Origin: an uncultured virus (IMG/VR IMGVR_UViG_3300021429_004282)
Taxonomy: Duplodnaviria; Heunggongvirae; Uroviricota; Caudoviricetes
Reading direction: 5' to 3' (one strand)
Length of the DNA: 64,000 nucleotides
Virus record (IMG/VR): IMGVR_UViG_3300021429_004282
A program made the translations under genes and the position numbers. Positions 1 through 44,392 of this stretch are shown here, piece after piece. The notes under the pieces are model-generated. The model was not told the DNA's origin. It ran no database searches and was given only the letters and a program-made list of their open reading frames with translations. Numbering within the stretch: the stretch's first letter is position 1; the number at the start of each line of letters is the position of its first letter.

Positions 1-65
1 GGGGAAGGTGAAGGTGAAGGTGAAGGTGAAGGTGAAGGTGAAGGGGCAGGTGAAGGTGAAGGGGG
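1..65 (-). repeat. (CCTTCA)n hexamer repeat encoding (Pro-Ser)n
   Basis: gaaggt tandem array on the + strand. Confidence 0.9.
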
Positions 66-194
66 TATGGGAGTTACACCCGGAGATTGCTGAAAGACCC
101 AATCTGAATAATTTATATCTGGAACCGGGTTTGAAGGCTCTGTCTCTGGTGTTGGTGGTATTTGATTAATATTTTCTTCTGTGTTGTTTTCCAT
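1..194 (-). CDS. 5' part of a Ser-Pro-repeat protein (runs off the window edge); probable virion/adhesin protein
   Basis: Manual translation from ATG at 194: [57 protein letters not shown]...; AAGGT upstream; not in the ORF track because it is truncated. Confidence 0.8.
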   Translation of the reverse strand, partial: MENNTEENINQIPPTPETEPSNPVPDINYSDWVFQQSPGVTPIPPSPSPAPSPSPSPSPSPSPS

Positions 195-231
195 AGAATA
201 CCTTGTTTTTTATAAAGGTATCTATGTATTA

Positions 232-281
232 AAAATACAAATAGGTTTCAATATTTAACTATTGAAACCTATTTGTATTTT
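232..281. terminator. Perfect 22-bp inverted repeat, probable terminator downstream of 287..826
   Basis: aaaatacaaataggtttcaata (232-253) / tattgaaacctatttgtatttt (260-281), 6-nt loop. Confidence 0.7.
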
Positions 282-286
282 ATTTT

Positions 287-826
287 TTATTCAATTGGGT
301 TTGCAGGTTTTTTTTCTATGGTGTTTTCTTCTTTCATTTCATTTTTTTTGGCAAAATCTTCCAAGGATTTTTTAAAATCTTCTTTTGAAGATAAAATGTT
401 GTTGATAGATTTTAGATATTCTTCTCTACCTTTTATTACTCCCTCTCGGTAGCCTTTTTCGAATTGCATTTCACCAACAAAATCGGTTTGTTCCAAACCC
501 CGTTGGTAGCCAGCATGCCAAATAGAAGATATTTCAGATTCTTGCGGAGGTATTTTATGGACTACAGAAATCATTCCTTCTAGTTTGCCAGATTGCTTGG
601 CATTTTCAATAGTGTTATCTCGAATGTTTTGAATATAAAGTCCTAGGACATCATTGAAACCATCTTGACTAATTTTACCAACTTCGGTTTTGATTTGGTT
701 TAGATGACTCAAATTGTTAGATCGATAGTATTGAATCAAATTGGTAGATACCGAAACCAAAACAATTAATCCCAAGGTGGACAAAATAATCTTGCGCACG
801 ACAAACTCCTTTTTGTAAAGATACAA
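287..826 (-). CDS. Hypothetical protein with N-terminal membrane anchor/signal and GYxxG repeats
   Basis: 179 aa ORF; hydrophobic IILSTLGLIVLVSV; HAGYQRG/EKGYREG. Confidence 0.7.
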   Translation of the reverse strand: MYLYKKEFVVRKIILSTLGLIVLVSVSTNLIQYYRSNNLSHLNQIKTEVGKISQDGFNDVLGLYIQNIRDNTIENAKQSGKLEGMISVVHKIPPQESEISSIWHAGYQRGLEQTDFVGEMQFEKGYREGVIKGREEYLKSINNILSSKEDFKKSLEDFAKKNEMKEENTIEKKPANPIE

Positions 827-872
827 CCACGCATGATTATAAATATTTTTGCAAGCAAGTCAACAGAAAATA

Positions 873-1223
873 TTAGTTTGCAAAACAAATTGGCTGAATC
901 AAAAAAGCACAATTTGAAATATCAACAATCCAAACATCTATATTATTATTTTTTTCCAAGCTTTCTTGTATTGCAGACATGTCACCCAAAATCTGATAGT
1001 TTTCATCTGAAAACTTTACGATTACAGGCATATTTTGCAGACTAGATTTTGTTTTGTTTTTTGGAATAGATTTGATTTTTTCAACATTTACGAATTTTTT
1101 TATTTTGCTAAATTTGTTTATTTGACCTTGTTTGGCTAATTCTCTCCAATCCTTTTGTGTACAGGCTTGGAATTCTGGAATAGTAATTGCTTCGTGCCAA
1201 ACAAGGTCGAAATTAGGTTTCAT
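873..1223 (-). CDS. Hypothetical protein
   Basis: 116 aa ORF abutting 1223..1510. Confidence 0.6.
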   Translation of the reverse strand: MKPNFDLVWHEAITIPEFQACTQKDWRELAKQGQINKFSKIKKFVNVEKIKSIPKNKTKSSLQNMPVIVKFSDENYQILGDMSAIQESLEKNNNIDVWIVDISNCAFLIQPICFAN

Positions 1224-1510
1224 TATTTTTTCTCAAATAGATATGCAGTGCTTTGTTCTGGAATTGAAATCCAAACAATTTCTTTTTGGTTTTCATCTAA
1301 AGTTTTACCAGCCAGAACTGTTCCGATGTTTGGGAACTGATTTTTCCACATCTCTGGAATGAGGCTGAAAGCGTATTCTAGTTCTAATGGAGTAGAGTTT
1401 TCTTTTAAATTTGGAATATTTTCTATATCATATGTTCCTATGAATTGAAAATTTTCTTCATTACTTTCAACTGTTTGTCGGAAGCTCATCCATTCATTAA
1501 AGTTTTGCAT
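1223..1510 (-). CDS. Small protein with capsid-targeting-like leader (MQNFNEWMSFRQTVE)
   Basis: Start moved to ATG 1510 with AAGG upstream. Confidence 0.65.
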   Translation of the reverse strand: MQNFNEWMSFRQTVESNEENFQFIGTYDIENIPNLKENSTPLELEYAFSLIPEMWKNQFPNIGTVLAGKTLDENQKEIVWISIPEQSTAYLFEKK

Positions 1511-1555
1511 TTTTATACCTTTATGCTTCAAACTGAAGCTTTGTTATTTACTGCC

Positions 1556-1684
1556 TCAACCTTCTTTAGCCATAGATTTCTTGGGATGCCAAGATTTTTC
1601 TTGTTTCATATCCTTGTCCAAAGATTTTTTCAGTTTGGGATTTTTCTTGGCCTCACGGATTAAAAGCCACTGCGTAAATTGCAT
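1556..1684 (-). CDS. 42-aa basic protein with capsid-targeting-like leader (MQFTQWLLIREAKKNPK...)
   Basis: Manual translation; GGAGG Shine-Dalgarno and ATAGATA box upstream; below the ORF-track cutoff. Confidence 0.7.
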   Translation of the reverse strand: MQFTQWLLIREAKKNPKLKKSLDKDMKQEKSWHPKKSMAKEG

Positions 1685-1801
1685 TGTATGTCCTCCAATT
1701 TAAAATATCTATGTGGATTTGATAAAAATTATTTTTTAGGGTTGCGAGATCTTTATCTGTGTGTAGACTGTGTCAAGGCCAAGTCAGGACGAGGGAATAA
1801 A

Positions 1802-2056
1802 ATGATTTTGCCACAGAAATTGTCCATGTATATACAAGAAGAAATAATTATAGCTTTATCTTGGGAGATAAATCACAAAGTCACCAAGGTTTGGGTTTTA
1901 TCGTCTCATGATTTAAAAGGAAATGTTGATTTGTGTGAGATAACTAATCACAAAGAATCGGGTCTAAAGCCATTTATAAGAGATGTTCTTAAAAATGGCA
2001 ATTATATTAGCAAGAATCCAATGTGCTTTGACACCTATGGATTTGAGAAGGTATAA
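1802..2056 (+). CDS. Hypothetical protein
   Basis: ATG 1802 preceded by GAGGG. Confidence 0.55.
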   Translation: MILPQKLSMYIQEEIIIALSWEINHKVTKVWVLSSHDLKGNVDLCEITNHKESGLKPFIRDVLKNGNYISKNPMCFDTYGFEKV

Positions 2057-2069
2057 CATATATAATTTT

Positions 2070-2378
2070 ATGTCAACACAATACGATTATTGCAAAGCAA
2101 ATATAAACAGTATATCGCAAGGATCTGACACAGACTTGCAGCTTTATTGTTCAAATGTTATTGAGTCATATGAAACAATTAATGAGAATCCGATTGTAAG
2201 CGTTAAAAATTATAATTGCCAATATATTGATAATGGTGGAAATACAGCTTTTCAAAATGTCGGTGTAAAATTATTTGAAAAACAATATGGCAAGGTTATG
2301 TATGTAACCGCATATAACCGCAAGCAGGTAAGCACAGCTTTTCTTCCGGCCATAACTGTTTGCAATCAAAATTTATAG
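2070..2378 (+). CDS. Hypothetical protein
   Basis: ATG 2070 preceded by ATATATA-N5. Confidence 0.6.
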   Translation: MSTQYDYCKANINSISQGSDTDLQLYCSNVIESYETINENPIVSVKNYNCQYIDNGGNTAFQNVGVKLFEKQYGKVMYVTAYNRKQVSTAFLPAITVCNQNL

Positions 2379-2401
2379 TTAACGAGCCAGAAAATCTGGC
2401 A

Positions 2402-3301
2402 CTAAACTGTATAAATGTGATCGACAAAATCCATCTGCATTTGAGCTTTAGGAAAAGCTTTGAATGGTGTATTTTGTGAAATTTTTGCCATTATTTCATT
2501 GCGTTCAAAGAACTGCTCAACTTCTGATGTTATTTTAAATTCATTTTCTATTTTTAAACCTGCACCGGCTGCATTGTCGGTGTAAGTTTTTATTGGGAAA
2601 AATACTTTTTGTGGGAAGCTTATCTTTTCATCTGGGAATAGTTCTTTTAGTTCCTGTTCGTTAAAAATTAGATGTATGAAAGCTTTGTTAAGCTTTTTAT
2701 ATAAATGTGCATGGTGGCGGGACATAAAACTATGATATCTTACAAATATTTTGCCTTGTGGAGCTAATATGGTTCGCATATTATTAAGAGCATCGACTTG
2801 CTGCATGTTTTCTAAATGATCCATAACATCGCAAGCAATTATTATATCATATGGTGCTCTTTCTTGAACATCTCTCCAATTTGTTGTGAGAAGAGTGTTT
2901 TTATCTTGTATGCTTGCAAAATCATTGTGAATATCATAGCCAACAGAAAATTTTGCTTTCCTCATAGCGCAAGCTTTCACAACATGGCCATAACCTGTGC
3001 CAAAATCTAGAACCATTTTTTCATGAACAGGTTCGGAGACTAAAACATCTACTATGCCATTTGCACGGCTCATTTTATGTTCTTCATTATTAGTATCGCA
3101 AATTAATTCATCAGCAACAGCCTTTGGCCATTCTTCAGAGAAAAGGAGTTTTTTCATGCCTTCAAAGTCAGATGCAGTTCCAGTTGCCATGGCTAATGAC
3201 ATAGGTGCAGGAAACAGGCTTTTGTCTTGTAACATATTTTCTATGTCAACTACTGCCGCCCTAATTTGTTTTAGCTTTTTTTCGATGATGTCTTTGGTCA
3301 T
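2402..3301 (-). CDS. Class I SAM-dependent methyltransferase
   Basis: VLDFGTGYG motif I, VGYDI, YDIIIACDVMDHL, LAPQGKIF. Confidence 0.85.
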   Translation of the reverse strand: MTKDIIEKKLKQIRAAVVDIENMLQDKSLFPAPMSLAMATGTASDFEGMKKLLFSEEWPKAVADELICDTNNEEHKMSRANGIVDVLVSEPVHEKMVLDFGTGYGHVVKACAMRKAKFSVGYDIHNDFASIQDKNTLLTTNWRDVQERAPYDIIIACDVMDHLENMQQVDALNNMRTILAPQGKIFVRYHSFMSRHHAHLYKKLNKAFIHLIFNEQELKELFPDEKISFPQKVFFPIKTYTDNAAGAGLKIENEFKITSEVEQFFERNEIMAKISQNTPFKAFPKAQMQMDFVDHIYTV

Positions 3302-3463
3302 GATTAATCCATGATTATAGGTTCAAATACAGAATTATTTAACCAACAAACTTGTTATTTATGATTAAAAGAAAAATAAGGTGAATAAAATTAAACAAAA
3401 ATTGTATAATAAACATAAATAAAACTCTATTTTTAATTATGTTTATTATCAAAGGAAACATTG

Positions 3464-3835
3464 ATGGAAAAAAATCACAAACACCTTATACTTAATGCCA
3501 AAGTTAAAAACCCTATCAATTGTGATAAAGAGTGTGAAGTTTGGCTTGCCAACCTAGTAAAGCTTATTGATATGGAAATTTTAGTTCCTCCCATGGCAAA
3601 ATATTGTGATATTGAAGGCAATGAAGGTGTGACTGGAGTGGTTATCATTACTACTTCTCATATATCAATTCATATATGGCCACAACAACCACAACCATAC
3701 ATTCGCATGGATGTTTATTCTTGCAAAGATTTTGATCCTAAATCTGTTATTAACTATGTGCATGAAACTATGGAAATAGTAGAAGAAGAGCATGTGGTTA
3801 TTGACAGAAACGCAAAGATGCAACTAATTGCCTGA
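3464..3835 (+). CDS. speD: S-adenosylmethionine decarboxylase proenzyme (pyruvoyl, class 1B)
   Basis: KHLILN, GVTGVVIITTSHISIHIWP, MDVYSCKDF motifs; ~123 aa. Confidence 0.85.
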   Translation: MEKNHKHLILNAKVKNPINCDKECEVWLANLVKLIDMEILVPPMAKYCDIEGNEGVTGVVIITTSHISIHIWPQQPQPYIRMDVYSCKDFDPKSVINYVHETMEIVEEEHVVIDRNAKMQLIA

Positions 3836-3840
3836 TATAA

Positions 3841-4128
3841 TTGATTGTGAGAATTAATAGTAAAAGTGCATTTAAAAGGCATGCTGGCAAATGTGCATTT
3901 TGTCTAGAAAACAATTATTCAACATTAGATGCTCACAGAATATTTGAAGGACAGAAAGGAGGCAAGTATTACTGGCAAAACTGTGTATGTGTATGTGCCA
4001 ACTGTCACCGTAAAATACATGATGGACAAATAATTGTAATAAAAAAACATTTAGGTTTTGGAGAGAACTTGTATGTTTTGGAATACATAGAGAATGGGGA
4101 AAACAAACTTCTAGGATTACACTACTAG
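3841..4128 (+). CDS. HNH endonuclease
   Basis: CAFC...LDAHRI...GGKY...NCVCVCANCHRKIH. Confidence 0.85.
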   Translation: MIVRINSKSAFKRHAGKCAFCLENNYSTLDAHRIFEGQKGGKYYWQNCVCVCANCHRKIHDGQIIVIKKHLGFGENLYVLEYIENGENKLLGLHY

Positions 4129-4136
4129 GTGGTTAT

Positions 4137-4694
4137 ATGTCGGAAACAGAAATGGGATTTTACGAATTAAAAGAAGGTGCAAGACCTTTTTTAATTATTA
4201 CAGAAAATGTAATTTTGTCTGAAAATTTAAAGTATCATGTTGAAAACAATATTTCTCTATCTAATTCAGTGTTTAGACTAGGTTCTGATGGATGGATGAA
4301 TTTGGTAAATGAAATCCGTGGACTTTATGAAAAAGGTCAAATTAATTTAAATGAAAATGATGAATTTATTATTTTGACAGAAGCTGGTAGAACCGGTATT
4401 TATCAAGGCAAATCAGTTCCTTTAGATTCTCCTCAAAGGTCAAGTGGGCCAAAAAAGTTTCATGTGTATGTAAATAGTGGAAGAAAAAATGCTGAAGGTC
4501 GAGTTGTTGCTAAAAAAGTTGGTTTCGGAGATCCTAACTTGAAAGTCAAAAACTATGATCGAGCCAGAGCTAAATCTTTTAGAGCCAGACACAAGTGCCA
4601 TCTTAAGACTGACAGAACTACTCCGGGATGGTGGAGTTGTAATGTGGCAAGATATAGAAAACAACTAGGACTAACATCAAGCACATCATGGTGA
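4137..4694 (+). CDS. Conserved phage protein with basic C-terminal KKFxVYV...FGDP...SFRARHKC domain
   Basis: Motif recognised from myovirus hypothetical proteins; function unknown. Confidence 0.7.
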   Translation: MSETEMGFYELKEGARPFLIITENVILSENLKYHVENNISLSNSVFRLGSDGWMNLVNEIRGLYEKGQINLNENDEFIILTEAGRTGIYQGKSVPLDSPQRSSGPKKFHVYVNSGRKNAEGRVVAKKVGFGDPNLKVKNYDRARAKSFRARHKCHLKTDRTTPGWWSCNVARYRKQLGLTSSTSW

Positions 4695-4703
4695 GGGGTT
4701 AAA

Positions 4704-5177
4704 ATGCAGACATTTAATGAGTTTTTTCAAAACAAAATAAACGAACAGGGCTATATGTCAAAGCCTGCTATAAAAATAGCAGTAAATAAAATGAAGTATA
4801 GTTTTGAAGATCCAATGTTAATGCCTAAATTTTCAGATAATGATCCAGATGATGTGAGTCATAAAGAACAACGCACATCATATTATACAGGATTTGTTGA
4901 GGTTCCTGTTATGCAAGAGGCTAAAAATGAAGCTATGAAAAAGGGCATGGATATCAAGAAATTTATTGATTTTGTTTTTGGTCTTGAGCCTATGGATCCT
5001 ATGTTTCAAAAATTTGTAGATGATGCTCCTTATCATCTATATGATTTGGAAAATGCACAGTTTGATGATGAAAAGCTACCCAATTTCGAAACAATTCCAG
5101 ACGGTCTATTGGATGCAGTGGGTCACGAACTGCAAGTAAAATTACAAAATGGAGACTATGAGGTGCTATATGCTTGA
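4704..5177 (+). CDS. Acidic protein with capsid-targeting-like leader (MQTFNEFFQNKINE)
   Basis: 157 aa; GAGGGG SD. Confidence 0.75.
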   Translation: MQTFNEFFQNKINEQGYMSKPAIKIAVNKMKYSFEDPMLMPKFSDNDPDDVSHKEQRTSYYTGFVEVPVMQEAKNEAMKKGMDIKKFIDFVFGLEPMDPMFQKFVDDAPYHLYDLENAQFDDEKLPNFETIPDGLLDAVGHELQVKLQNGDYEVLYA

Positions 5178-5307
5178 TAATCTTGTTTTTTTTATAGTAG
5201 GTTTAGTTATTGGTTGGAATGTTCTTCCCCAGCCAGCTTGGGTCAAAGCACTTTATGATCTTGTAATATCAAAAATAAAAAGCTGGGCTGCTCCAAAAAG
5301 TGAGTAA
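5170..5307 (+). CDS. 45-aa small membrane protein (MLDNLVFFIVGLVIGWNVLPQPAWVK...)
   Basis: Manual translation; GAGG upstream; overlaps both neighbours; single hydrophobic helix. Confidence 0.7.
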   Translation: MLDNLVFFIVGLVIGWNVLPQPAWVKALYDLVISKIKSWAAPKSE

Positions 5308-5575
5308 TTATAAACCATATCAAGAAATTACACATGAAAACTGTGTGATTCGAATTTTTAGTCCGGATGTGGACACAGACGAACTAAAATGGCATCGTGA
5401 TTATGAAGACAGAATTGTGGTGCCATTAAATGATAATGATTGGTTGTATCAGGAAGACAATAGTTTGCCGAAGCCAATTAAAGAAAAGATTTATATCAAA
5501 AAAGGAATATGGCACAGAGTTCACAAAGGAACAACAGATTTAAAAATATTAATAGAAAAATCCCCTGCGGTGTGA
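5300..5575 (+). CDS. Cupin-like conserved phage protein
   Basis: WHRDYEDR and IKKGIWHRV metal-binding-like motifs. Confidence 0.7.
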   Translation: MSNYKPYQEITHENCVIRIFSPDVDTDELKWHRDYEDRIVVPLNDNDWLYQEDNSLPKPIKEKIYIKKGIWHRVHKGTTDLKILIEKSPAV

Positions 5576-5592
5576 ATGCAGGGGATTTTTCT
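5556..5592. terminator. Bidirectional rho-independent terminator
   Basis: aaaaatcccctgc...gcaggggattttt between convergent genes. Confidence 0.85.
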
Positions 5593-5603
5593 ATTTGTAA
5601 ATC

Positions 5604-5939
5604 TTAGTCTTGATGAAAATAATCATCAGGCAAATCATGCGTTACTAGTTTGAAGCCTTTTTCTACATGTTCCCTATCATCTGGGTGTAGATTAGATAGA
5701 ATGCTATCGATATCGCTGCTATCCTGAACATACATATCCGACTCTTCGTTGTCTGTTGTTTTATAATTATCACCAGATTTTACTATGGCTTTATTTCCAG
5801 ACCAAATGTGCAGATGTCCAAATCTATTTTTTTGGATGGTTGCTGGTGGATAGGCATGCATACGGGAATTTTCTCCACCCATTTCCATATCCATGGCTTC
5901 ATTTATTTTTTCTTGAAAGAAATCAGAGAACTTTTTCAT
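5604..5939 (-). CDS. Protein with capsid-targeting-like leader (MKKFSDFFQEKINEA)
   Basis: 111 aa; overlaps stop of upstream gene. Confidence 0.75.
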   Translation of the reverse strand: MKKFSDFFQEKINEAMDMEMGGENSRMHAYPPATIQKNRFGHLHIWSGNKAIVKSGDNYKTTDNEESDMYVQDSSDIDSILSNLHPDDREHVEKGFKLVTHDLPDDYFHQD

Positions 5940-6490
5940 TTTGCACCTTTATTTTTGACAGGGATTCCGTATTGTTCACATCTTAAGAGCTCAAGATCAA
6001 CCCCAAAATATGGGGAGTATTCATGAATTGCACCTTCTGGGGTTCTTATTCTAATAAGGTTCATAATTTTTTTGGCAGACTCTATGACGAACTTTTTCTG
6101 ATTTACACCAGCTACTAGTTCCTTGTTTTCGTTTACTGCACCTGATCCAACAAATATTCTATTTTCATTTGATGTACCGCAACTACCCATAATTTTATTG
6201 AGTCCAAACTCATCATGGGCCTGAGGAACACCTTTAAGAACAGCAACTTTCATAGCACCATGATCTCCATGGTGTTCGTCTTCGTCCCCTTCTTCCTTGT
6301 CATACATATAAGCATCTTTCACATCGCTGACAGCAGCTTTGGCTATAGATATTTTATGTTCCATCCAGCTTTCAACTTCTTCATTTTCATCTATCATATC
6401 CATTAACATGGAAGCATGTTTTACAATGGCATGTAGATTTCTGCGCACCATATAGCTACCATGGTGGTGGTCTTCATTTTTCTTTTTCAT
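5936..6490 (-). CDS. Conserved phage hypothetical protein
   Basis: YMxRxNL...ESWMEHKISIA helical motif; AAGGTG SD. Confidence 0.7.
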   Translation of the reverse strand: MKKKNEDHHHGSYMVRRNLHAIVKHASMLMDMIDENEEVESWMEHKISIAKAAVSDVKDAYMYDKEEGDEDEHHGDHGAMKVAVLKGVPQAHDEFGLNKIMGSCGTSNENRIFVGSGAVNENKELVAGVNQKKFVIESAKKIMNLIRIRTPEGAIHEYSPYFGVDLELLRCEQYGIPVKNKGAK

Positions 6491-6511
6491 AGTTCACCTT
6501 TCGTTTATTTA

Positions 6512-7150
6512 TTATTGAATCTTTAATTCTTTATTGTTGATTAAAAATTTATGACTTACAGAAACTTCTGTAATAAGTTCTGGCACTCCTATATGATTTG
6601 CTATTTTATGACTTTTTGCTTGTTTAGCATCCATGTAAATTTCAGCATGATTGTGTTTGTGTAGCAGATTAAGAAAGTATTTTTCATCAACTCCTATGTG
6701 TTTGGCAGCCATTCCGAAAAGCATATTATTGAGTCTATTTGTTTCTTCGGCGTTTGCTTTTACTTCTTCTACTTTTCCATAGGAACCAGAGCTAACTTCA
6801 TGCAACATAAGAGTTGCTTGTTCTGACATAAATCTATATCCATTTGTACCGAACATGAATAGCATTGCACCACACGACATGGCTTTGCCATTACATATGG
6901 TGGCAACTGGAACGGGAGAACTTTTGATCAAAGATATCATTTCCAATAAGCAATATACTTCTCCGCCGTATGAATCTATCACAATTGGTATTACAGGTGG
7001 GTTTTTATTTAAGGCATTGTTGAAATCACATGAAAATTTTTCAACCATTTCATAATCAAATACTTTACTGACTCTAATGGCAGGGGCCTGCACATCCAGA
7101 TCTGCAGTTTTGCAACGAATCCGACTATCGACACGAATGTAGTTTTTCAT
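6512..7150 (-). CDS. clpP: ClpP-like serine protease (S14)
   Basis: IDSYGGEV, GKAMSCGA (Ser), LMLHEV (His). Confidence 0.85.
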   Translation of the reverse strand: MKNYIRVDSRIRCKTADLDVQAPAIRVSKVFDYEMVEKFSCDFNNALNKNPPVIPIVIDSYGGEVYCLLEMISLIKSSPVPVATICNGKAMSCGAMLFMFGTNGYRFMSEQATLMLHEVSSGSYGKVEEVKANAEETNRLNNMLFGMAAKHIGVDEKYFLNLLHKHNHAEIYMDAKQAKSHKIANHIGVPELITEVSVSHKFLINNKELKIQ

Positions 7151-7171
7151 GTCTATATTTTAAGCTGTGTA

Positions 7172-8620
7172 TTAGTTTGTTGCAAGAAGTTTTTTGACTT
7201 CATGATCAAACAATTTTTGTCTGACTTGTTCGAATTCATCTGTTCTTGGAACTCTACCCAAAAAATGAATTAATCTCGGGTTTACTTCTCTTTTTCCTTC
7301 TTTTTCAACATATTTTTTCATGACATTTGAAAAATCATGTCCGAAAATTTTACTGTACAAATCTTCTTTGCCTAAAAGTGACATAAATTTCTTTATGAGA
7401 TAATTTGGCAAATTAGATGGTTTAGCAAAAAAGTCATAAATCAAATGGGGATTCAAATAATTGTGTTTGCAAAATTGTGCTAACTTGGTAAGTTTAATTA
7501 TATTTTCAATATCGTTTTTAGACCAACCAAAATTTGTTAAAACATTATCAATTTTGGTAGCTATATTGTTCTGAAGAATTAATGCTGTAGGAATTATTTT
7601 ACCATTAGGCATATCGCTAACAGGATCTGTAATGTGCATATCTGGAAATATTATTGTGATTAATTCTGAATCAACAAGATTTTTGAGATATTGATCTACA
7701 GGTACATCTACATCTTCTATTGCAGAAATGTAATATCTTTTGACTACATGTTTTTTGACATCGAGATTTTGTATGTTTTCTTTAATTTTATTCAAAATAT
7801 TTGATGGTATTTTTTTATCACCAGAGTAAACAGAAGCTAATTTGGCAATTTTCAAAGGCAAATAAGGATCTTTGCCAAATGGATTTTCTTCTTGCTTGAT
7901 TAATTCAATAGTCCCATTTTTCAAATCGAACATGCCTCCATGAGGATCTATAAGTTCTCCGTTTTCACCTTCATCATTTTTTAATTTGAGATAAAGCGCA
8001 AGTATTGTAAGTCCTCTTGAAAAAGAATCTTCTTCAACACTGGTTGTAAAATATCTTTTTTTAGGTGTTAACATTCTGTTTTTGGAGTTTTTATTTAAAG
8101 TGGCCAGAAATATTTTTTGGCTATCAATAACAACTGTGAATTCCATCTCTTCATGGTTTACATCCCATCTGCTTGCGTAAAAAACTCGTTTTCTTGCTTC
8201 CATTTCAGGAAGGTTTTTATATTTTGACATGTTTTCTATGTCTAAATTTGGAGGACGAACTTCCTTTAGGTCAGCATCTTTTGTAGACAAAATCATCCTA
8301 ATTTCGTCTGGTGAGGCATCGGTAACAAGGTCGTATTCTTCGACTAGTTTGTTTTTTAGGTGGTCTGCTAAAGAACCTCCAGTAATATAAATATCCTTCT
8401 TTTTCATGGTCGGCTCGACCAAGCCTTTTCCTTTGTCAAGCGTGGTGTATCCTAATTTTATTTGATCTGTATTATTAAATGCTTTTACGATTGTTCTCAA
8501 GGAAGGATGTGATTTATAATCAACCACAAAAGGACGAAACTCTCCATTTTTGTCATTATCTTTCAAACGAAATTTTGCTGACAAATATTCTTCTTTTTCA
8601 ACTGCCTGATTATTTTCCAT
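7172..8620 (-). CDS. CCA-adding/poly(A) polymerase-family nucleotidyltransferase, degenerate motifs
   Basis: YITGGSLADHL..EYDLVTDASPDEI, TSVEEDSFSRGLTILALY, LIDPHGGMFDL, FGKDPYLPLK correspond to class II NTase motifs. Confidence 0.75.
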   Translation of the reverse strand: MENNQAVEKEEYLSAKFRLKDNDKNGEFRPFVVDYKSHPSLRTIVKAFNNTDQIKLGYTTLDKGKGLVEPTMKKKDIYITGGSLADHLKNKLVEEYDLVTDASPDEIRMILSTKDADLKEVRPPNLDIENMSKYKNLPEMEARKRVFYASRWDVNHEEMEFTVVIDSQKIFLATLNKNSKNRMLTPKKRYFTTSVEEDSFSRGLTILALYLKLKNDEGENGELIDPHGGMFDLKNGTIELIKQEENPFGKDPYLPLKIAKLASVYSGDKKIPSNILNKIKENIQNLDVKKHVVKRYYISAIEDVDVPVDQYLKNLVDSELITIIFPDMHITDPVSDMPNGKIIPTALILQNNIATKIDNVLTNFGWSKNDIENIIKLTKLAQFCKHNYLNPHLIYDFFAKPSNLPNYLIKKFMSLLGKEDLYSKIFGHDFSNVMKKYVEKEGKREVNPRLIHFLGRVPRTDEFEQVRQKLFDHEVKKLLATN

Positions 8621-8626
8621 ATGTCC

Positions 8627-9136
8627 TCAATTACCCGGAGATGATATTCCAATTTTATAAGCTATGTACATTAGCACAACATTATAAATTATCTGTAGTC
8701 CTAAACTTGTAAATTTTTTAAATTTATCTTCTGTGCCTTCTTTGAAAATCTTCAAATGTTCATTTTGTCTTTCTAGCTTTGTTACCCTGTCAGAAAAATC
8801 TTTATCAGACCTTTCATTTAAGGATATGGTTTTTTCCATGTCAGATATACTTTTTCTAATTATAGAAACCTTGCCGTTTAAATCATTCAATGTATCATTA
8901 ACATTTTCAACATCTTGTGCTTCAACAGTTATAACTCTTTCTAACAAATTGTTATAATTGTCTAAAAGTTTTTCAAATCTTTGAGCTAATTGTATTTGCT
9001 GATCATGTAAAGCTTTGATTTTTTCTTCTAGCCTATAACTTGCAGCTGTAAGTTCTTTAACAGATACTGATAGCTGGGTGTAAAAAACACTTGAACTAAA
9101 AGATTCATCTGATTTATTGTTCCTAGGCGGAGTCAT
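8627..9136 (-). CDS. Coiled-coil protein with C-terminal transmembrane helix
   Basis: Heptad-rich; LGLQIIYNVVLMYIAY. Confidence 0.75.
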   Translation of the reverse strand: MTPPRNNKSDESFSSSVFYTQLSVSVKELTAASYRLEEKIKALHDQQIQLAQRFEKLLDNYNNLLERVITVEAQDVENVNDTLNDLNGKVSIIRKSISDMEKTISLNERSDKDFSDRVTKLERQNEHLKIFKEGTEDKFKKFTSLGLQIIYNVVLMYIAYKIGISSPGN

Positions 9137-9184
9137 AAATCTATTTAGGTTATTAAAACTAAAAATAACTACTTAGATATATAC

Positions 9185-10916: not shown

Positions 10917-10928
10917 TAGATAAAAAAG

Positions 10929-11435: not shown

Positions 11436-11449
11436 TCGGCTTATTTGCC

Positions 11450-11456
11450 ATAAATA
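11450..11456 (+). promoter_or_regulatory. T4-late-type promoter box ATAAATA
   Basis: ATAAATAAGATATG, identical to 26261-26274. Confidence 0.6.
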
Positions 11457-11460
11457 AGAT

Positions 11461-11979
11461 ATGGCTGATGATCTTTCTGGTCTTTTTGCTGCTGTTGACA
11501 AGGCTTCTGGTTTAGGAGTTGCCGCCAACCAATATGGTCCAAGCATCAAAAGACTTGGCAAAGGAGCCTTGGTGCAATTCACATATGGTAATGCCAAACC
11601 CGGACATGATCAAAATCCACTTGTTATTTTAACTGATGTTGGGCTCAAATATTTTAGAGGTGTAAATCTCCATTATTTGACATTTCCAGTAATACGCCAA
11701 ATGCTTCAAAAAACAGGTTTGAACTTTTGTAATAACCCATTTTTGAGCTATCAAACTAATATAAAATCTAATGAATATATAAAGAAAGCATTTAGGGTGT
11801 ACAAACGAGCAAGTTGCAAAAGAGTAAAAATTCTTGATTGTAATTTTATTTTGAACGCAATGGGATCTGTTCGTGCTCTCGATCCGCAAGATTTAGAAGC
11901 AATACGATCTTCTATAAAAGAGCAGTTAGCAAAAACCGTGAATCAAAATATTCCAGACATGCCTCAGGTTGAAACATGA
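11461..11979 (+). CDS. T4 gp2-like DNA end protector protein
   Basis: FTY...HDQNPLVI...FRGVNLHYL...AFRVY resembles gp2 D-x-x-PL...GLNLHYL. Confidence 0.6.
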   Translation: MADDLSGLFAAVDKASGLGVAANQYGPSIKRLGKGALVQFTYGNAKPGHDQNPLVILTDVGLKYFRGVNLHYLTFPVIRQMLQKTGLNFCNNPFLSYQTNIKSNEYIKKAFRVYKRASCKRVKILDCNFILNAMGSVRALDPQDLEAIRSSIKEQLAKTVNQNIPDMPQVET

Positions 11980-15749: not shown

Positions 15750-15759
15750 TTGGTGAAAA

Positions 15760-16296: not shown

Positions 16297-16297
16297 C

Positions 16298-16624: not shown

Positions 16625-16631
16625 GGAAATA

Positions 16632-18266: not shown

Positions 18267-18268
18267 AA

Positions 18269-20395: not shown

Positions 20396-20412
20396 ATCGT
20401 AGAAAGGTATGA

Positions 20413-20832
20413 ATGGATCTTTTAGCTGCTCCTTTTCCCATAGTGAAAAATCCCCGTGGATTGCTAGCATCTGTATCAGGACTAGATGGAATAAAAGGGG
20501 ATCTATTGCAGCTTATTTTGACGAACCCCGGAGACAGGGTGATGTTGCCTACTTATGGCACGCCGTTACGCAGACTTTTGTTTGAACCAAACACAGAAAT
20601 ACTTTCCAACACAGTCAAGCAGGCCATAACGGATTCTATTTCTACATGGGAACCAAGAATTGTTGTAAATTCAATAGAAGTTGAAAACAGTGCTGCAAAT
20701 GCATCTTTGCCATCGGGTGATCCGAGGCAAAATTTGGAAAACTTTCTCTCTATAAAAATACAATTTAGCACATTCAATAATATTGATGTGGTAGAAAACC
20801 TTATATTACAAGTACCAATAGGCGAGGCATAA
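20413..20832 (+). CDS. Baseplate gp25-like (GPW_gp25)
   Basis: LILTNPGDRVMLPTYGTPL..LLFEP...WEPRI. Confidence 0.92.
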   Translation: MDLLAAPFPIVKNPRGLLASVSGLDGIKGDLLQLILTNPGDRVMLPTYGTPLRRLLFEPNTEILSNTVKQAITDSISTWEPRIVVNSIEVENSAANASLPSGDPRQNLENFLSIKIQFSTFNNIDVVENLILQVPIGEA

Positions 20833-20833
20833 T

Positions 20834-22387
20834 ATGGCAGATAGTTGCCCTTTTGACATTCAACCATACAAACAGACGAACATACAAAACCGTCCGACTC
20901 CTGTTAATCTGAATTATACAAATCAAGATTTCTGGTCCATGAAAGCCCGTTTGATTTCTTTTACTAAAGAAAAGTTTGGTGACCAATTCAATGATTTCGT
21001 AGAATCCAGTTTGGCTTTAATGCTTATAGAAAACTGGGCATTTATAGCAGATACATTATCATTTAAGATTGACCAAATAGCCAATGAAGTTTTTATTGAT
21101 ACTGTAACTGAAATAGAAAATGCTTTTCGTTTGGCAAAGCTTGTTGGCTATCAACCACAACCTCCAATAGCTGCCAAAAGCATGTGGACAGCAAGAATAA
21201 GTACTCCTCAAACCATAGATCTTGTTATACCAACACCTTTTGATGTTTCTCTGGTAAACAATGGTGCTGGCATCAACATTGAATTGTTTCCAGCAGATCC
21301 TTTTAATAGACCAATATATGATCAAGATATTTTGATTCCGGCTGGATCAATTTCAAATTCTAATATAGTTGGATTGGAAGGACAAACATTTAATGATACT
21401 TTCATAGGTACTGGGGAAATAAACCAAAGTTTCCTCTTGAATTTTCTTCCAGTACTTTTGGATTCTATCAGAGTTGATGTTGATGGTCAAAGGTGGGAAA
21501 AAGTTGAGTATTTCACTGATTCACAACCAAGAAGAGAATATCGAGTTGAATACAACTCAGACTTTAGTGCTTTCATAATCTTTGGTAATAATCGTGCAGG
21601 ACAAATTCCAACAGCCGGGGCGGTAATTACAGCCACATATAGAGTTGGTGGTGGCACAAATGGAAATATAGTAACAAATTTTGCCAATGTTGAAACGCTT
21701 GTCCCAATCGAGGGACAAGATTTTAGTGTTTTGATAAATCTTTCAAACTACACTAGAGGCGAGTTTGGGTATAATGGTGATACTGTAGAAGATATAAGAA
21801 GAAAGCTTCCTATTTACAACAGATCTCAAAACAGGGCTGTTACTGGTTCTGATTATAAATCAATATGTGATCTTTTTGTAACTCCTTACAATGGTGTTAT
21901 GGGTAAATCTGCTGTTGCTTTAAGACATGCAGGATGTTCTGCAAACATTATTGACATTTATATATTAGCAAAATCCGGTGATGCAGGATTACAGATTGCT
22001 AATTCGCAATTTAAAGCAGAACTGACAGATTACTTGAATACCAAAAAGATGCTTACAGATTTTACATGTCTTAAGGATGGGGTTGTTGTTTTAACATCAG
22101 TATTGATAGATGTTGTTTTAGATAAATATTATCGAACATTTGAGGAGACAATCAAAGCAAGAATTCAAAGTGCTCTTTCTGTGTTTTTTAATCTTGTGAA
22201 TTGGGACTACGGCCAGACACTTCGTGATACTGATGTGATTAAAGCCTTATTCTCTGTGCAAGAACCATACAGGTATGATGTTACCTTGACTACTGCAAAT
22301 CCTGATAATAGCGGCAAACAGGTCACAACTAAATACTTTGAGATTATAAGACCAGATACAATTGAAATAGAGTTCCAGTACGAATGA
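20834..22387 (+). CDS. Baseplate wedge gp6/J-like
   Basis: YTNQDF, LAKLVGY, IIFGN, YRVGGGTNGN, NRAVTGSDY. Confidence 0.92.
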   Translation: MADSCPFDIQPYKQTNIQNRPTPVNLNYTNQDFWSMKARLISFTKEKFGDQFNDFVESSLALMLIENWAFIADTLSFKIDQIANEVFIDTVTEIENAFRLAKLVGYQPQPPIAAKSMWTARISTPQTIDLVIPTPFDVSLVNNGAGINIELFPADPFNRPIYDQDILIPAGSISNSNIVGLEGQTFNDTFIGTGEINQSFLLNFLPVLLDSIRVDVDGQRWEKVEYFTDSQPRREYRVEYNSDFSAFIIFGNNRAGQIPTAGAVITATYRVGGGTNGNIVTNFANVETLVPIEGQDFSVLINLSNYTRGEFGYNGDTVEDIRRKLPIYNRSQNRAVTGSDYKSICDLFVTPYNGVMGKSAVALRHAGCSANIIDIYILAKSGDAGLQIANSQFKAELTDYLNTKKMLTDFTCLKDGVVVLTSVLIDVVLDKYYRTFEETIKARIQSALSVFFNLVNWDYGQTLRDTDVIKALFSVQEPYRYDVTLTTANPDNSGKQVTTKYFEIIRPDTIEIEFQYE

Positions 22388-22393
22388 TGAGGA

Positions 22394-25300
22394 ATGATGT
22401 TAAAAAAGTATTATGAGAACCCCAAAGTCACAGATGACATTGAAATCGACTTCTATACACCGGATGCAGACGGTTGTTTTGATATAGATCCGTATAAAGT
22501 TGATAATATCAAGATTTATTACATTATAAGAGACACTAATGGTGCTTTGAACGAACAGTCTTTTATAGATCAATTTGATGTTGCAAGACAAAAAACTTAT
22601 TTGGAAGCTCAGCAACTAGCCTGTACTGATCCTACTGCTGAAAATATTGCAAATGCAGATCAGCTTAGAAGAGAATTTGAAGCAACCAGTATTTATAATA
22701 CGACATTTTATTCTAGTTCCATGGTAGTTTTGAATAACGGATCTTCCACCAATCCTGTTTGGTTAAGAGGTACAGCAAATACTAATTCCATCATTACAAA
22801 AATTGTTGAGGCAGGTTCAGAAATACAAAATGGATATTTCAAATTTATTTGGTCACCAAATGGAACAATTAGAGAAGGTGATTATTATATATGTTGGACT
22901 TGGACTCCAAATATTGCTGGAGACTCTTTTTCTTCTTATTTACATTTTACTATAAGTAGCGATATAGCAAACGAAGTTAGCAACCCATCACATGTAATAA
23001 ATAGTTCTCAATATAAAAATCTACTAGATTTATATTTGCCAGAAATGTATAAAATGTCATATGCAAAAGATGACATGACAGTTTCAACTTTAAATAATTT
23101 TAACGCATCTGTGGCTGAAGGATATACGGTTTTAGACAATTTAGCCGCTCAAGTAGTCGATATTATTGATAGCAATGCAACTCAAGAACCAATACTTGGA
23201 TATTTGGCTAATTTTTTTGGATTGCTTTTGCGTTCTGATGATCCAACTTTGTGGAGAAGGCAGATCAAAAAAGCAATTCCTAATTTTAAACAGAAAGGAA
23301 CTTATGATGGATTGCGTGGAGCTCTTTCTGATGCTGGAATTACACTAGAAAAATATACACAGTATTGGCAGTGCGGTACTGATAACATTTATACAGAATA
23401 TTTTAAATATGATGGGTCAAATTCTTGGGATTTAACAAAAACATCTTTAGCAGTTAATCCTACCTATTTCGAATTGGAAAAAAGATCGGTAACAGGCACT
23501 TATGCTGCAAGCAGCCTTTCAAACATTTCTATAACAACAGTCGATGGCATAAGCACTATGACTTGGGTAGGAGCACCTCTGGTTGCTGGGGATGTTATAA
23601 AAATACAATATCAGATTAAAGCCTTTACAAGCCCGGAATTAACAATATGGAACATTGTAAAAGATTTACCGCTAGCTGACCTTAGAGATGATAGAGACTT
23701 TGATTATCCTCCAAAAGATTGGAATACAAAGTTGATATCAGAAGATGATGCTAATTTCAGCACCGTGATTTCAACTAAAAACCCTTTTGTTAATTATCTT
23801 TATTTTGGCAAAGTTAGAACCAAATTTCCTTATAGTGAAAATGTTTACAACATGGATGAATACAATGGTTCTTTGAGAGATAGCCAAAATCCTTGTGATA
23901 TTGACAAATCATTTTTAGAACCATGTCGTGGATTTATAAGTTCATATTATAGCCTAGATGTTGGAATAAAAGAATTGTCCAACGAAAGGCTGCAAGAAAT
24001 TCAAGACATTGTTGCCGAATACACACCTTTCCATGCTGTTCTGCACACTTTGAATTTTAGTGGTAATTTTGAAGATTTTATTATTCCTCCAGAAGAATCA
24101 ATAGAAATGTTGGTTCAATACCAGACTACCGAATTCATGATCACAGGCATGGCTCAAACAGTTTTCAACCGTGCCATGTTTTTAGGATTGCAAAACAATG
24201 CGGTATTAAGAATTGATCTTGCCACGAATATGCTTGTGCCTTTTGCTATGCGTTCGAACTCTCTATATGAAACTGATGGGCAAAAACTTGGGTTTTTAGA
24301 CAAAGTAGGTCCAACACCTGAAGTTAAAATGTCTGACTTATATGAAAATCCATTGTCTATGGATGAATGGGTCTTTCAGCAGACACCCGGTTTAACTCCT
24401 ATACCGCCATCACCTAGCCCTGCACCATCGCCCTCACCTAGCCCTGCACCATCGCCCTCACCTAGCCCTGCACCATCGCCCTCACCTAGCCCTGTACCAT
24501 CGCCCTCACCTAGCCCTGCACCTTCACCCAGCCCTATTCCTGTTTTCACAGGCACAGCTACTGGTTATAATGACACAATAAACTTATATTGTGCTCAAGT
24601 TAATTTTCAGTCACTAGGAATATATTCTGACTCTAATAAAACATTGCTTGAAATTCTTGGGCCAAGTTCTAATTCTGGTGAGTATGAGGTTGAAAATCCA
24701 AAAAATTCATATATTGGAGCAATAGGATCTATCACAGAGCCAATCAACACTGCGCCTTTTACTTTCAATTTATCAAATATAAATTTGGCATCTTGGTCAT
24801 TCACAGCGGCACAGGCAAATAAACATTCCATGTCAGATTCTGAATATAATTATGCAGATTATCCTATTACAACTCTTTGGGATGTCGCTCAAGGACATGC
24901 AGTTGCTGCTTGGCAAGTACAAGTAGGCGCTACAGTTTACGATATTGCCGATATAAGAAACAATATTTTATTAATCGAAGATGATGGTTCATTGAGTAAT
25001 TCCAACGCAACAGGAGTTAGCTATTCTTTGTTAAGTCCAACTGGGACAGAATTTAGTTCTACTTCTGGTGATTATACAGTGCAGGTACTTGGCAAAATCA
25101 CAACAGGTGAACCGGGAATAGACTCAGCAAGCCAAATAATAGGAAACAATGGATATTTTTATTATGATTCTAATAACGAGCAATACAAGTTTAATTCCTA
25201 TGATTCAGACGATCAACTATCGTTTTATATTGACGACTGGGATGGAACGAATGGCAGCGTTACAGGGAAGGCTTTGACGAGATTGTTAACAGAACAAGTG

Positions 25301-44379: not shown

Positions 44380-44392
44380 AACAGGAGAAAAC

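What the first reader, a model, noticed from the sequence alone, without database searches (positions are those of the whole stretch)
1..24535. Same WVFQQxPGxTPIPP(SP)n module in two unrelated genes 24 kb apart on opposite strands
Seen: the edge ORF (101 down to 1, minus strand) encodes [24 protein letters not shown] and the gp7-like baseplate gene (24368-24535) encodes [24 protein letters not shown]. The peptides are near-identical but codons differ at many synonymous sites (Ser TCA versus AGC), so the match is conserved at protein level rather than being a fresh copy. In gp7 it lies in a ~100-aa block that looks inserted. Inference: a portable recognition tag plus stalk, such as a docking, glycosylation or processing signal shared among virion proteins.
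Basis: partly seen in the sequence, partly recalled or inferred. Interest (0 to 1): 0.75.

Follow-up and report, generated by a model that had tools for sequence, protein, structure and literature searches.

The report
Shared peptide handle in phage proteins
Two unrelated proteins of an uncultured giant phage, a baseplate part and a propeller-repeat protein, carry the same short peptide followed by a floppy serine-proline spacer; it is probably a shared docking handle, but its partner is unknown and it is confined to this small phage lineage.

Summary
WVFQQSPGVTPIPP(SP)n lies at 101..1(-) and WVFQQTPGLTPIPP(SP)n at 24368.. in ORF 22394-25771; chance expects 0 matches. The shared stretch is longer than reported, about 39 aa beginning at a common PTPE (BLASTP E 3e-6). 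Synonymous sites in the 14-codon core are saturated (dS 1.08, dN 0.07). The (SP)n parts are independent tandem arrays of 24-nt and 6-nt units.

The edge ORF is the N-terminus of a roughly 900-aa RCC1-repeat protein. Its orthologue P0003 keeps 42 of 45 N-terminal residues against 42% identity in the propeller body. In the gp7/P2-gpI-like wedge protein the module sits in a ~101-aa insert predicted to be disordered. That junction is 12-13 aa in 110 of 113 homologue clusters.

No third carrier was found in the window, IMG/VR, one metagenome collection, GTDB genomes or 1.84 billion protein representatives. A 97%-identical gp7 variant reads WVFQQDGEETPIPA.

Best reading (0.38): a short linear docking motif on a flexible stalk, moved between two genes. 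"Portable among virion proteins" is not shown. Interest is moderate to low.

The parts
1..194 (-). 5' end (64 codons) of an RCC1-repeat protein gene. The start ATG is at 194-192 and the gene runs off the window.
   Evidence: Translation. Metagenome contig L008 overlaps window 1-113 exactly and continues the frame for 877 aa. Pfam RCC1 E 2.3e-94 and RCC1-like domain E 1.6e-142. Orthologue P0003 starts with the same MENNTEEN.
60..170 (-). Shared peptide module, copy 1 (residues 9-45: INQIPPTPE...SDWVFQQSPGVTPIPP). The invariant core WVFQQ....TPIP lies at 101-63.
   Evidence: BLASTP against the gp7-like protein gives E 3e-6. phmmer E 4.9e-7 among 265 window ORFs. 42 of 45 N-terminal residues are identical in P0003.
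1..59 (-). Start of the (SP)n spacer of the RCC1 protein, a 6-nt tandem array that continues outside the window.
   Evidence: TRF on L008: period 6, 20.5 copies, 76% matches. Six-frame regex.
22394..25771 (+). gp7 / P2 gpI-like baseplate wedge protein, 1125 aa (P0002).
   Evidence: Pfam Tail_P2_I scores 22.2 bits against a cut-off of 20.6. It follows a gp25-like gene (PF04965) and a gp6/J-like gene (phrog_219 E 8.7e-32). 345 homologues were found, many on contigs of 200-650 kb.
24236..24541 (+). Lineage-specific insert of about 101 aa (residues ~615-716) at the junction between the N- and C-terminal halves of the gp7-like protein.
   Evidence: The junction is 12-13 aa in 110 of 113 clusters, 35 aa in P0006, 44 aa in P0005 and 114 aa here. 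AF2 pLDDT is 30-36 with no secondary structure over 615-712, while both flanks are confident.
24296..24409 (+). Shared peptide module, copy 2 (residues 635-672: LDKVGPTPE...DEWVFQQTPGLTPIPP). The core lies at 24368-24409.
24405..24529 (+). (SPSPAPSP)n spacer of the gp7-like protein, a 24-nt tandem array.
   Evidence: TRF: period 24, 5.2 copies, 95% matches. Copy number differs between near-identical strains, giving ORFs of 1101 to 1130 aa.
232..281 (.). Hairpin with 25-nt arms between the upstream gene (287-826, minus strand) and the RCC1 gene start. It is terminator-like, so the RCC1 gene probably has its own transcription unit.
   Evidence: Arms are 96% complementary with 0 nt between them.

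Best explanation
What it is (well supported). A peptide module of about 39 aa (PTPE, then 14-15 residues, an acidic pair, then WVFQQ-xxxx-TPIP) is followed by a Ser-Pro tandem-repeat spacer. Two otherwise unrelated proteins of one huge-phage lineage carry it. One copy forms the N-terminus of a roughly 900-aa protein built as RCC1 propellers plus a small C-terminal domain. The other sits in a disordered ~101-aa loop inserted at a domain junction of the gp7/P2-gpI-like baseplate wedge protein. One gene acquired it from the other, or both from a third source, long enough ago to saturate synonymous sites. The SP spacers then grew independently by slippage.

How it most likely works (inferred). WVFQQ....TPIP is a short linear docking motif held away from the protein body by flexible proline-rich arms. 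In the RCC1 protein it would act as the N-terminal anchor that tethers the propeller 'head' to a phage structure through a stalk of roughly 50 residues. In the wedge protein the same peptide, displayed on a long loop, would engage the same socket. The partner is not identified.
For: Two copies against 0 expected by chance. Similarity extends over 39 aa at E 3e-6, while the rest of the two proteins is unrelated. Core dS is 1.08 against dN 0.07, and codon identity is at chance level (6 of 11 against 4.7 expected), so the peptide rather than the DNA is what is kept. In the RCC1 protein the N-terminal 45 aa are 42 of 45 identical to orthologue P0003, against 312 of 736 (42%) in the propeller body; all 4 members of that cluster keep WVFQQAPGVTPIPP. 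This pattern of a conserved N-terminus and a divergent body is the one known for virion-attachment ends of phage fibres (established knowledge, recalled). Both copies sit in sequence predicted or expected to be disordered and are followed by length-polymorphic tandem XP arrays, which is the usual setting of a short linear motif. The same phage uses XP spacers plus Kelch/RCC1 propellers in giant proteins of its tail-fibre cluster. Other phages fuse RCC1 blades to baseplate-like N-termini (L040, L041, judged by eye). RCC1 propellers on stalks are therefore plausible tail appendages.
Against: No partner is known, and nothing here shows binding. The RCC1 gene lies about 12 kb from the tail module, on the other strand, among metabolic and RNA-modification genes, so its presence in the virion is an assumption. 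In the gp7 context the constraint looks weaker. None of the other 119 listed homologue clusters has the motif. The two nearest clusters keep only FAM[RK], D-W (P0005 only) and PTPIPI. Two of the 6 own-cluster members that cover the site read WVFQQDGEETPIPA. The high N-terminal identity to P0003 could reflect recent recombination rather than selection, and no DNA of P0003 was available to test this. AF2 gave no sign that the loop docks back on the wedge protein, although with no alignment depth in the insert that result is uninformative. The statistics rest on 14 codons.
Confidence: 0.38

Rival explanations
1. Recombination scar or tolerated filler. A piece of one gene (peptide plus spacer) was copied into a permissive junction of the other. 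The conserved residues serve only a local role, for example a hydrophobic cap where the proline-rich spacer leaves a folded part, and there is no shared partner.
For: The carriers number only two genes in everything searched. The gp7 junction tolerates 12 to 114 aa. Spacer copy number drifts between strains. The xPGx part was replaced by DGEE in a 97%-identical strain. Relatives of the giant fibre protein carry 0, 26 or 86 aa of XP spacer at one site, so such tracts come and go freely in this clade.
Against: A neutral scar should not keep 12 of 14 residues while synonymous sites saturate (dN 0.07 against dS 1.08). WVFQQ and TPIP are invariant in all four sequence variants seen. At the RCC1 N-terminus there is no upstream folded domain to cap.
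Confidence: 0.25
2. Recognition signal for an enzyme that modifies the adjacent Ser-Pro array, by O-glycosylation of Ser or hydroxylation of Pro. The motif would recruit the enzyme to the stalk.
For: The motif always lies directly N-terminal to an SP array. A GT9 (heptosyltransferase-like) gene lies at 43164-44120, three ORFs after the fibre cluster (Pfam E 1e-6). Virion glycosylation in phages is reported; I saw a passage saying so in PMC12619734.
Against: The longest SP array of the window (86 aa, 32567-32824) and the AP/TP array at 39655-39720 have no such motif. The GT9-like protein matches only LPS heptosyltransferases among solved structures, weakly (E 3e-5). No prolyl hydroxylase was seen among the 48 window ORFs scanned against Pfam; not all ORFs were scanned.
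Confidence: 0.12
3. Proteolytic maturation site. A phage protease would cut at or near the module, removing a ~30-45-aa propeptide from the RCC1 protein and splitting the wedge protein into two chains.
For: The window encodes three protease-like genes: ClpP-like at 6512-7150, prohead-protease-like at 62442-63113 and M36-like at 49564-51195. Both copies share a PTPE 14-15 residues upstream of the Trp.
Against: No known cleavage consensus was tested or matched. 110 of 113 homologue clusters of the wedge protein have an uninterrupted 12-13-aa junction, so cleavage is not part of the family's assembly. Prohead proteases act inside heads, not on baseplates (established knowledge, recalled).
Confidence: 0.06
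4. Relic of half an Ig/PKD-like domain. The D-I-x-Y-x-x-W-x-F-Q-Q-x-P-G stretch would correspond to the PKD signature strand.
For: The metagenome scan turned up YYWQFQQPPGVTP in the C-terminal domain of a 532-aa protein (L006, L014, L021). That domain has sub-threshold PKD hits (PKD_4 E 0.0014), and four flanking positions also agree with the module (by eye).
Against: Neither module copy matches any Pfam family even at E up to 10. There is no room for a domain between the N-terminus and the spacer. The flanks are proline-rich and the gp7 copy is predicted to be disordered.
Confidence: 0.04

Closest known systems
T4 gp7 / P2 gpI baseplate wedge proteins (Pfam PF09684 Tail_P2_I)
   Same: The carrier of copy 2 matches the family profile above its cut-off. 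It sits in the W(gp25)-J(gp6)-I(gp7) gene order. At about 1030-1050 aa in most relatives, it has a length close to the ~1004-1031-residue baseplate chains it matched weakly in Foldseek.
   Different: It carries a ~101-aa disordered insert with the peptide module and an SP array at a junction that is 12-13 aa in 110 of 113 homologue clusters. I know of no such loop in the described family members (recalled).
Conserved N-terminal virion-attachment ends of phage tail fibres and tailspikes, with exchangeable distal domains (general principle, recalled)
   Same: The N-terminus is far better conserved than the body between orthologues, at 93% against 42%, and a distal beta-rich head sits on a stalk.
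   Different: Here the 'anchor' is a proline-rich peptide of about 45 aa rather than a folded domain. The C-terminal 82 aa are conserved as well, at 85%. The gene lies outside the tail module. The same peptide also occurs inside a baseplate protein.
Pro-rich (PT, SP, EP/KP) interdomain linkers of secreted glycoside hydrolases, cellulosomal proteins and TonB (recalled)
   Same: These are tandem XP dipeptide arrays encoded by DNA repeats. They are variable in length and sit between domains. One database source even named variant P0129 'TonB'.
   Different: Those linkers are not preceded by a conserved non-repetitive motif shared between unrelated proteins. These proteins have no signal peptide on inspection, and that was not tested with a tool.
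RCC1-like repeat proteins of large phages (for example eleven in coliphage phAPEC6, function unknown; passages read in PMC7247149)
   Same: The carrier of copy 1 is a multi-blade RCC1 protein of a large phage. RCC1 proteins occur in 30 GenBank phage records and 21 IMG/VR loci.
   Different: None of those, and none of the 119 closest database relatives, has the N-terminal module or a long XP spacer.
Short linear motifs in disordered regions (eukaryotic and viral SLiM concept, recalled)
   Same: A core of 5+4 invariant residues lies in disordered, fast-evolving flanks, has been gained in a new protein context, and has partly degenerate positions.
   Different: No cognate binding domain is known, and the setting is a bacteriophage structural protein.

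Membership tests
gp7 / P2 gpI baseplate wedge family (PF09684) | Match to the family profile above the curated cut-off | tested here: met
   22.2 bits against a cut-off of 20.6, residues 241-327; 23.4 bits for the N-terminal half alone.
gp7 / P2 gpI baseplate wedge family (PF09684) | Gene order gp25/W-like, then gp6/J-like, then gp7/I-like, within a tail module | tested here: met
   20413-20832 is GPW_gp25, E 5.6e-18. 20834-22387 is phrog_219 baseplate wedge, E 8.7e-32. The tape-measure-like and hub/spike-like genes lie upstream.
gp7 / P2 gpI baseplate wedge family (PF09684) | Fold similarity to solved wedge proteins | tested here: inconclusive
   Foldseek on the full model gave 8kea_c (cyanophage A-1(L) baseplate) at prob 0.99 over 135 columns, 9f4a_A0 at 0.72 and 5iv5_BJ (T4 baseplate) at 0.47, all with low TM scores.
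RCC1-like repeat propeller proteins (PF00415, PF25390) | Multiple RCC1 repeats matching the profiles | tested here: met
   RCC1 in 9 stretches, E 2.3e-94; RCC1-like domain E 1.6e-142 on L008:1819-4449.
Tandem-repeat proline-rich flexible linker | XP dipeptides encoded by DNA tandem repeats, with copy number varying between close strains | tested here: met
   24-nt unit x5.2, 6-nt x20.5, and 12/18/30-nt units. gp7 orthologues of 97% identity or more range from 1101 to 1130 aa through the array.
Short linear motif in a disordered region | A short conserved core within poorly conserved, disordered flanks | tested here: met
   12 of 14 core residues are identical against 46% over 39 aa. dN 0.07 against dS 1.08. 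pLDDT 30-36 across the insert, with the caveat that there is no alignment depth there.
Short linear motif in a disordered region | Conservation of the motif across orthologues of each carrier | tested here: inconclusive
   RCC1 lineage: kept in 4 of 4 members of the P0003 cluster. gp7 lineage: absent from the other 119 listed clusters and altered to DGEE in 2 of the 6 own-cluster members that cover the site.
Short linear motif in a disordered region | A defined binding partner or domain | not testable with these tools
   No candidate socket was identified. This needs binding assays or a systematic controlled co-folding screen.
N-terminal virion anchor of a tail fibre or receptor-binding protein | N-terminus more conserved than the distal body between orthologues | tested here: met
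   42 of 45 against 312 of 736. The C-terminal 82 aa are also conserved, at 70 of 82.
N-terminal virion anchor of a tail fibre or receptor-binding protein | Gene located in the tail or baseplate module | tested here: not met
   The gene ends at window 194 on the minus strand. The tail module starts near 11976 on the plus strand. In between lie methyltransferase, AdoMet decarboxylase, ClpP-like and nucleotidyltransferase genes.
N-terminal virion anchor of a tail fibre or receptor-binding protein | Protein present in the particle | not testable with these tools
   The phage is uncultured and no proteome is available.
PKD / Ig-like domain | Match to a PKD-type profile | tested here: not met
   No Pfam family at E up to 10 for either module copy.
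Signal for protein glycosylation | A cognate protein glycosyltransferase and a modified stalk | tested here: inconclusive
   A GT9-like gene lies at 43164-44120 but resembles LPS heptosyltransferases only weakly. The modification itself cannot be tested here.

The most novel reading that the evidence does not exclude
A peptide-in-socket attachment code in huge phages. A baseplate wedge protein displays, on a long disordered loop, the same short peptide that an accessory RCC1-propeller protein carries at its N-terminus. Both would plug into one socket, either competing for it or filling equivalent sockets. Accessory host-binding heads could then be hung on the baseplate, or swapped, by moving a ~40-aa handle rather than a folded adaptor domain.
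Probability: 0.17. Interest if true: 0.6.

Novelty: new variant of a known kind. Interest (0 to 1): 0.35.

Why it matters
If the peptide is a docking handle, it would show that large phages can attach or re-target accessory tail proteins through a transferable linear motif on a flexible stalk. That is a simpler unit of modular exchange than the folded adaptor domains known from cultured phages, and it would make a compact tag for engineering. It would also give a first functional hint for the many RCC1-repeat proteins of large phages, whose role is unknown (PMC7247149, passages read). If it is only a tolerated scar, it still documents how proline-rich spacers and adjoining peptides spread and grow at domain junctions of baseplate proteins.

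Tried and rejected
1. Co-folding of the RCC1 body (residues 66-877 of the L008 ORF, alignment A4) with the module (A3) as partner. The tool gave no verdict, and this counts neither for nor against binding.

2. Word-based search with the N-terminal 45 aa against longer proteins. It found only P0003 and missed the window's own gp7 cluster, so it is too insensitive to count as a census.

3. Profile of the two module copies against 1.84 billion representatives. Three hits reached E <= 0.001. P0003 is real. P0124 and P0125 are long repetitive proteins that scored through 15 and 10 weak stretches and lack the motif, so I rejected them.

4. Host mimicry. The GTDB genome scan for WVFQQ....TPIP gave 1 hit (L048), inside a 502-aa ORF of a Saprospiraceae MAG with no proline spacer. 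I treat it as chance.

5. Of the 20 metagenome hits to W.FQQ.PG.TP, 15 lie in short or high-GC frames without any linker (chance). Three are the PKD-like protein. Two are this phage.

6. PKD-relic idea: no profile support.

7. The only paper containing the string WVFQQ is on antibody design (search listing only). From memory the motif resembles an antibody light-chain framework, and I regard that as coincidence.

8. Fold of the C-terminal half of the wedge protein (pLDDT 86.9). The best matches are small beta-barrels, at Z 7.5 over 73 residues to a tailspike C-terminal domain and Z about 6 to lambda and T1 tail-tip proteins. These are too weak to name a function.

9. Attempt to learn whether relatives with a motif-less gp7 carry the RCC1 orthologue. 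The five IMG/VR fragments searched (14-35 kb) hold only the RCC1 part of the giant fibre protein, which is uninformative. The exact P0005 contig held is only 6 kb.

10. Earlier notes of this scan: none.

11. Literature searches for RCC1 with tail fibre, huge phages with proline-rich, and virion O-glycosylation linkers found nothing describing this module.

Full report
OBSERVATION

The minus-strand ORF at the left edge starts at ATG 194 and reads [55 protein letters not shown]..., running off the window. ORF 22394-25771 (1125 aa, P0002) reads ...[26 protein letters not shown]... from 24368. A back-translated pattern allowing two mismatches hits only these two places, against 0.00 expected in 100 shuffles. 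A six-frame regular-expression scan finds WVFQQ nowhere else in the window.

The similarity is longer than reported. BLASTP aligns residues 9-46 of the edge ORF with 635-673 of P0002 (46% identity, one gap, E 3e-6), starting at a shared PTPE. phmmer with the module against all 265 stop-to-stop ORFs of the window finds only the two copies (E 4.9e-7; the next best is 0.31). Outside the module the two proteins show no similarity.

PROTEIN-LEVEL CONSERVATION

- In the 14-codon core there are 6.0 synonymous differences on 10.5 synonymous sites and 2.0 non-synonymous on 31.5, giving dS 1.08 and dN 0.07.
- At the 11 identical non-Trp residues the same codon is used 6 times, against 4.7 expected from this phage's codon usage (P=0.31).
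- The copy is therefore old and the peptide is kept by selection. The sample is only 14 codons.

THE SPACERS ARE NOT COPIES OF ONE ANOTHER

The gp7 array is a 24-nt unit x5.2 with 95% matches. The edge-ORF array is a 6-nt unit x20.5. A third SP array, in the 2047-aa protein, has 12/18/30-nt units. Near-identical gp7 orthologues range from 1101 to 1130 aa through array copy number.

WHAT THE CARRIERS ARE

The window is part of a huge phage.
- The only held near-identical record (24 kb) is rated 5% complete.
- Homologues of P0002 sit on contigs of up to 652 kb.
- The only GenBank phage hit is a 595-kb uncultured phage.

P0002 is the gp7/P2-gpI-type wedge protein.
- Tail_P2_I scores above its cut-off.
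- It is preceded by gp25-like and gp6/J-like genes, a hub/spike-like gene and a tape-measure-like gene.
- Fold matches to solved baseplates are weak.

The edge ORF continues in metagenome contig L008, whose last 113 nt equal window 1-113. It is an 877-aa continuation consisting of about 55 aa of SP/TP spacer, RCC1 repeats (Pfam E 2.3e-94; RCC1-like domain E 1.6e-142) and a small C-terminal domain without a family match. An independent orthologue, P0003 (877 aa), has the same architecture from the same start.

THE INSERT

I aligned 113 sequences: P0002 plus 112 of the 120 listed homologue clusters. I left out P0004, which is its own cluster, and seven clusters of atypical length (P0025, P0033, P0042, P0068, P0070, P0080, P0091). 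All eight omitted clusters were still checked by regular expression.

- The junction spanning P0002 residues 609-722 is 12-13 aa in 110 sequences, 35 aa in P0006, 44 aa in P0005 and 114 aa in P0002 (also seen in the 30-sequence alignment).
- The two intermediate inserts share FAM[RK] at the start and PTPIPI[FD] at the end. P0005 also has D-W, and neither has FQQ or an SP array.
- Of the 120 listed clusters, only the window's own has the motif.

AlphaFold2 with this alignment gives confident N-terminal (1-557) and C-terminal (713-1068) parts. Residues 615-712 have pLDDT 30-36 and no secondary structure. There is no alignment depth in that stretch, so 'disordered' is expected but not proven. The C-terminal half folded alone is confident (pLDDT 86.9, pTM 0.74) and beta-rich, without a convincing structural relative.

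DISTRIBUTION

- Strict pattern in IMG/VR: 3 contigs, all gp7 orthologues of this species. The second pattern, WVFQQ....TPIP, found the same 3.
- Looser pattern in the metagenome collection: 20 loci. Two are this phage (L008 RCC1, L018 gp7), three are an unrelated PKD-like protein and 15 are chance.
- GTDB genomes: 1 chance hit.
- Profile against 1.84 billion representatives: only P0003 is real.
- None of the 119 closest RCC1 relatives of P0003 has the motif or a long XP tract. Nor do RCC1 proteins of 21 IMG/VR loci. The tblastn matches listed for GenBank phages (30 records matched, 15 listed) begin at residue 86 or later of P0003, so none covers its N-terminal module.
- These collections are partial. 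The JGI member of the P0003 cluster was not in the scanned metagenome set, and most of this genome was not available to me.

CONSERVATION WITHIN EACH LINEAGE

Between the edge ORF and P0003 the identities are:
- N-terminal 45 aa: 42 of 45.
- Propeller body: 312 of 736 (42%).
- C-terminal 82 aa: 70 of 82.

All 4 members of the P0003 cluster read WVFQQAPGVTPIPP. In the gp7 cluster, 6 of 11 members cover the site. Four read WVFQQTPGLTPIPP, and two (97% identical overall) read WVFQQDGEETPIPA. The residues invariant across all four variants are WVFQQ and TPIP.

CONTEXT

The fibre cluster downstream of the wedge gene holds a 2047-aa protein (Kelch- and RCC1-like regions and an 86-aa SP array) and an 842-aa Kelch-like protein with an AP/TP array. 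Neither has the motif. In two relatives the giant protein has 0 or 26 aa of XP tract at the corresponding place. XP spacers at domain junctions are therefore a labile feature of this clade, and the WVFQQ module is an extra, specific element.

The RCC1 gene itself lies outside the tail module. A hairpin with 25-nt arms separates it from the upstream gene.

INTERPRETATION

Shown:
- A ~39-aa module is shared by two unrelated proteins.
- It is ancient at the DNA level and constrained at the protein level.
- It is placed in flexible sequence ahead of independently grown spacers.
- It is strongly kept at the N-terminus of the RCC1 protein and less strictly kept in the wedge-protein loop.

Inferred: it acts as a short linear docking motif. 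In the RCC1 protein it would be the N-terminal anchor of a stalked propeller head. In the wedge protein it would be a loop-displayed copy that addresses the same socket. I put this at 0.38.

Rivals:
- A tolerated recombination scar with only a local role (0.25).
- A recruitment signal for modification of the SP stalk (0.12). A GT9-like gene is nearby, but the longest SP array lacks the motif.
- A maturation cleavage site (0.06).
- A PKD-domain relic (0.04), with no profile support.

The direction of transfer is open. The graded inserts in P0006, P0005 and P0002 allow either decay of an ancestral module in the relatives or a later overwrite from the RCC1 gene.

COMPARISON AND NOVELTY

Module exchange among phage tail genes, conserved N-terminal attachment ends, and proline-rich linkers are all known (recalled). 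A short non-repetitive peptide that travels with its spacer between a baseplate wedge protein and an RCC1-repeat protein was not described in the literature I could search. It matches no Pfam family. I file it as a new variant of a known kind, of moderate to low interest because it is confined to one lineage and its function is untested.

Noticed in passing
window 44252-45400 (+): A 382-aa protein matches the Pfam Volactin family (actin-like) over its full length, E 2.2e-64. This is an actin-fold protein encoded by a huge phage.
   Followed up: no
window 43164-44120 (+): A GT9 heptosyltransferase-like protein (Pfam E 1e-6). Among solved structures it matches only LPS heptosyltransferase I, weakly (E 3e-5). 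It lies just after the tail-fibre cluster.
   Followed up: partly
window 31529-37672 (+), array at 32567-32824: A 2047-aa tail-cluster protein has Kelch-like and RCC1-like regions and an 86-aa (SP)n array encoded by 12/18/30-nt repeats. Orthologues in two relatives have 0 or 26 aa of XP tract at that site.
   Followed up: partly
window 37672-40200 (+), array at 39655-39720: An 842-aa Kelch-like protein has an AP/TP linker flanked by Cys-rich sequence.
   Followed up: no
window 56094-59846 (+): A 1250-aa ORF carries the portal match only in residues 920-1135. It also has endonuclease-like and terminase-like PHROG hits further upstream. This could be a fusion or an inserted element in the portal gene.
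   Followed up: no
window 2402-8620: A cluster of non-structural genes lies between the RCC1 gene and the tail module: a class I methyltransferase, AdoMet decarboxylase, a ClpP-like protease and a poly(A) polymerase/CCA-adding-type nucleotidyltransferase.
   Followed up: no
window 49564-51195 (-) and 52589-53071 (-): An M36 (fungalysin)-like metallopeptidase, weak at E 2.9e-5, and a ferritin-like protein.
   Followed up: no
window 232-281: A hairpin with 25-nt arms, 96% complementary, no loop spacer, and T runs on both sides. It is a terminator-like element between two minus-strand genes.
   Followed up: partly
L006, L014, L021 (metagenome loci), ORF 4579-6174 of L006: A 532-aa protein from GC-rich contigs carries YYWQFQQPPGVTP inside a sub-threshold PKD-like C-terminal domain. 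It resembles the module at a few flanking positions, probably by chance.
   Followed up: partly
L040, L041 (IMG/VR loci): Two adjacent ORFs of about 925-975 aa join a long N-terminal part, which looks like a baseplate/fibre protein by eye, to RCC1 repeats starting after residue 530. RCC1 blades therefore appear as distal modules of tail proteins in other phages.
   Followed up: no
P0138 (gp7 cluster member, 674 aa): This member diverges from the others just before the motif (...YENPLGTVDNALPAG...) and ends soon after. It could be a frameshifted or truncated assembly at the repeat.
   Followed up: no
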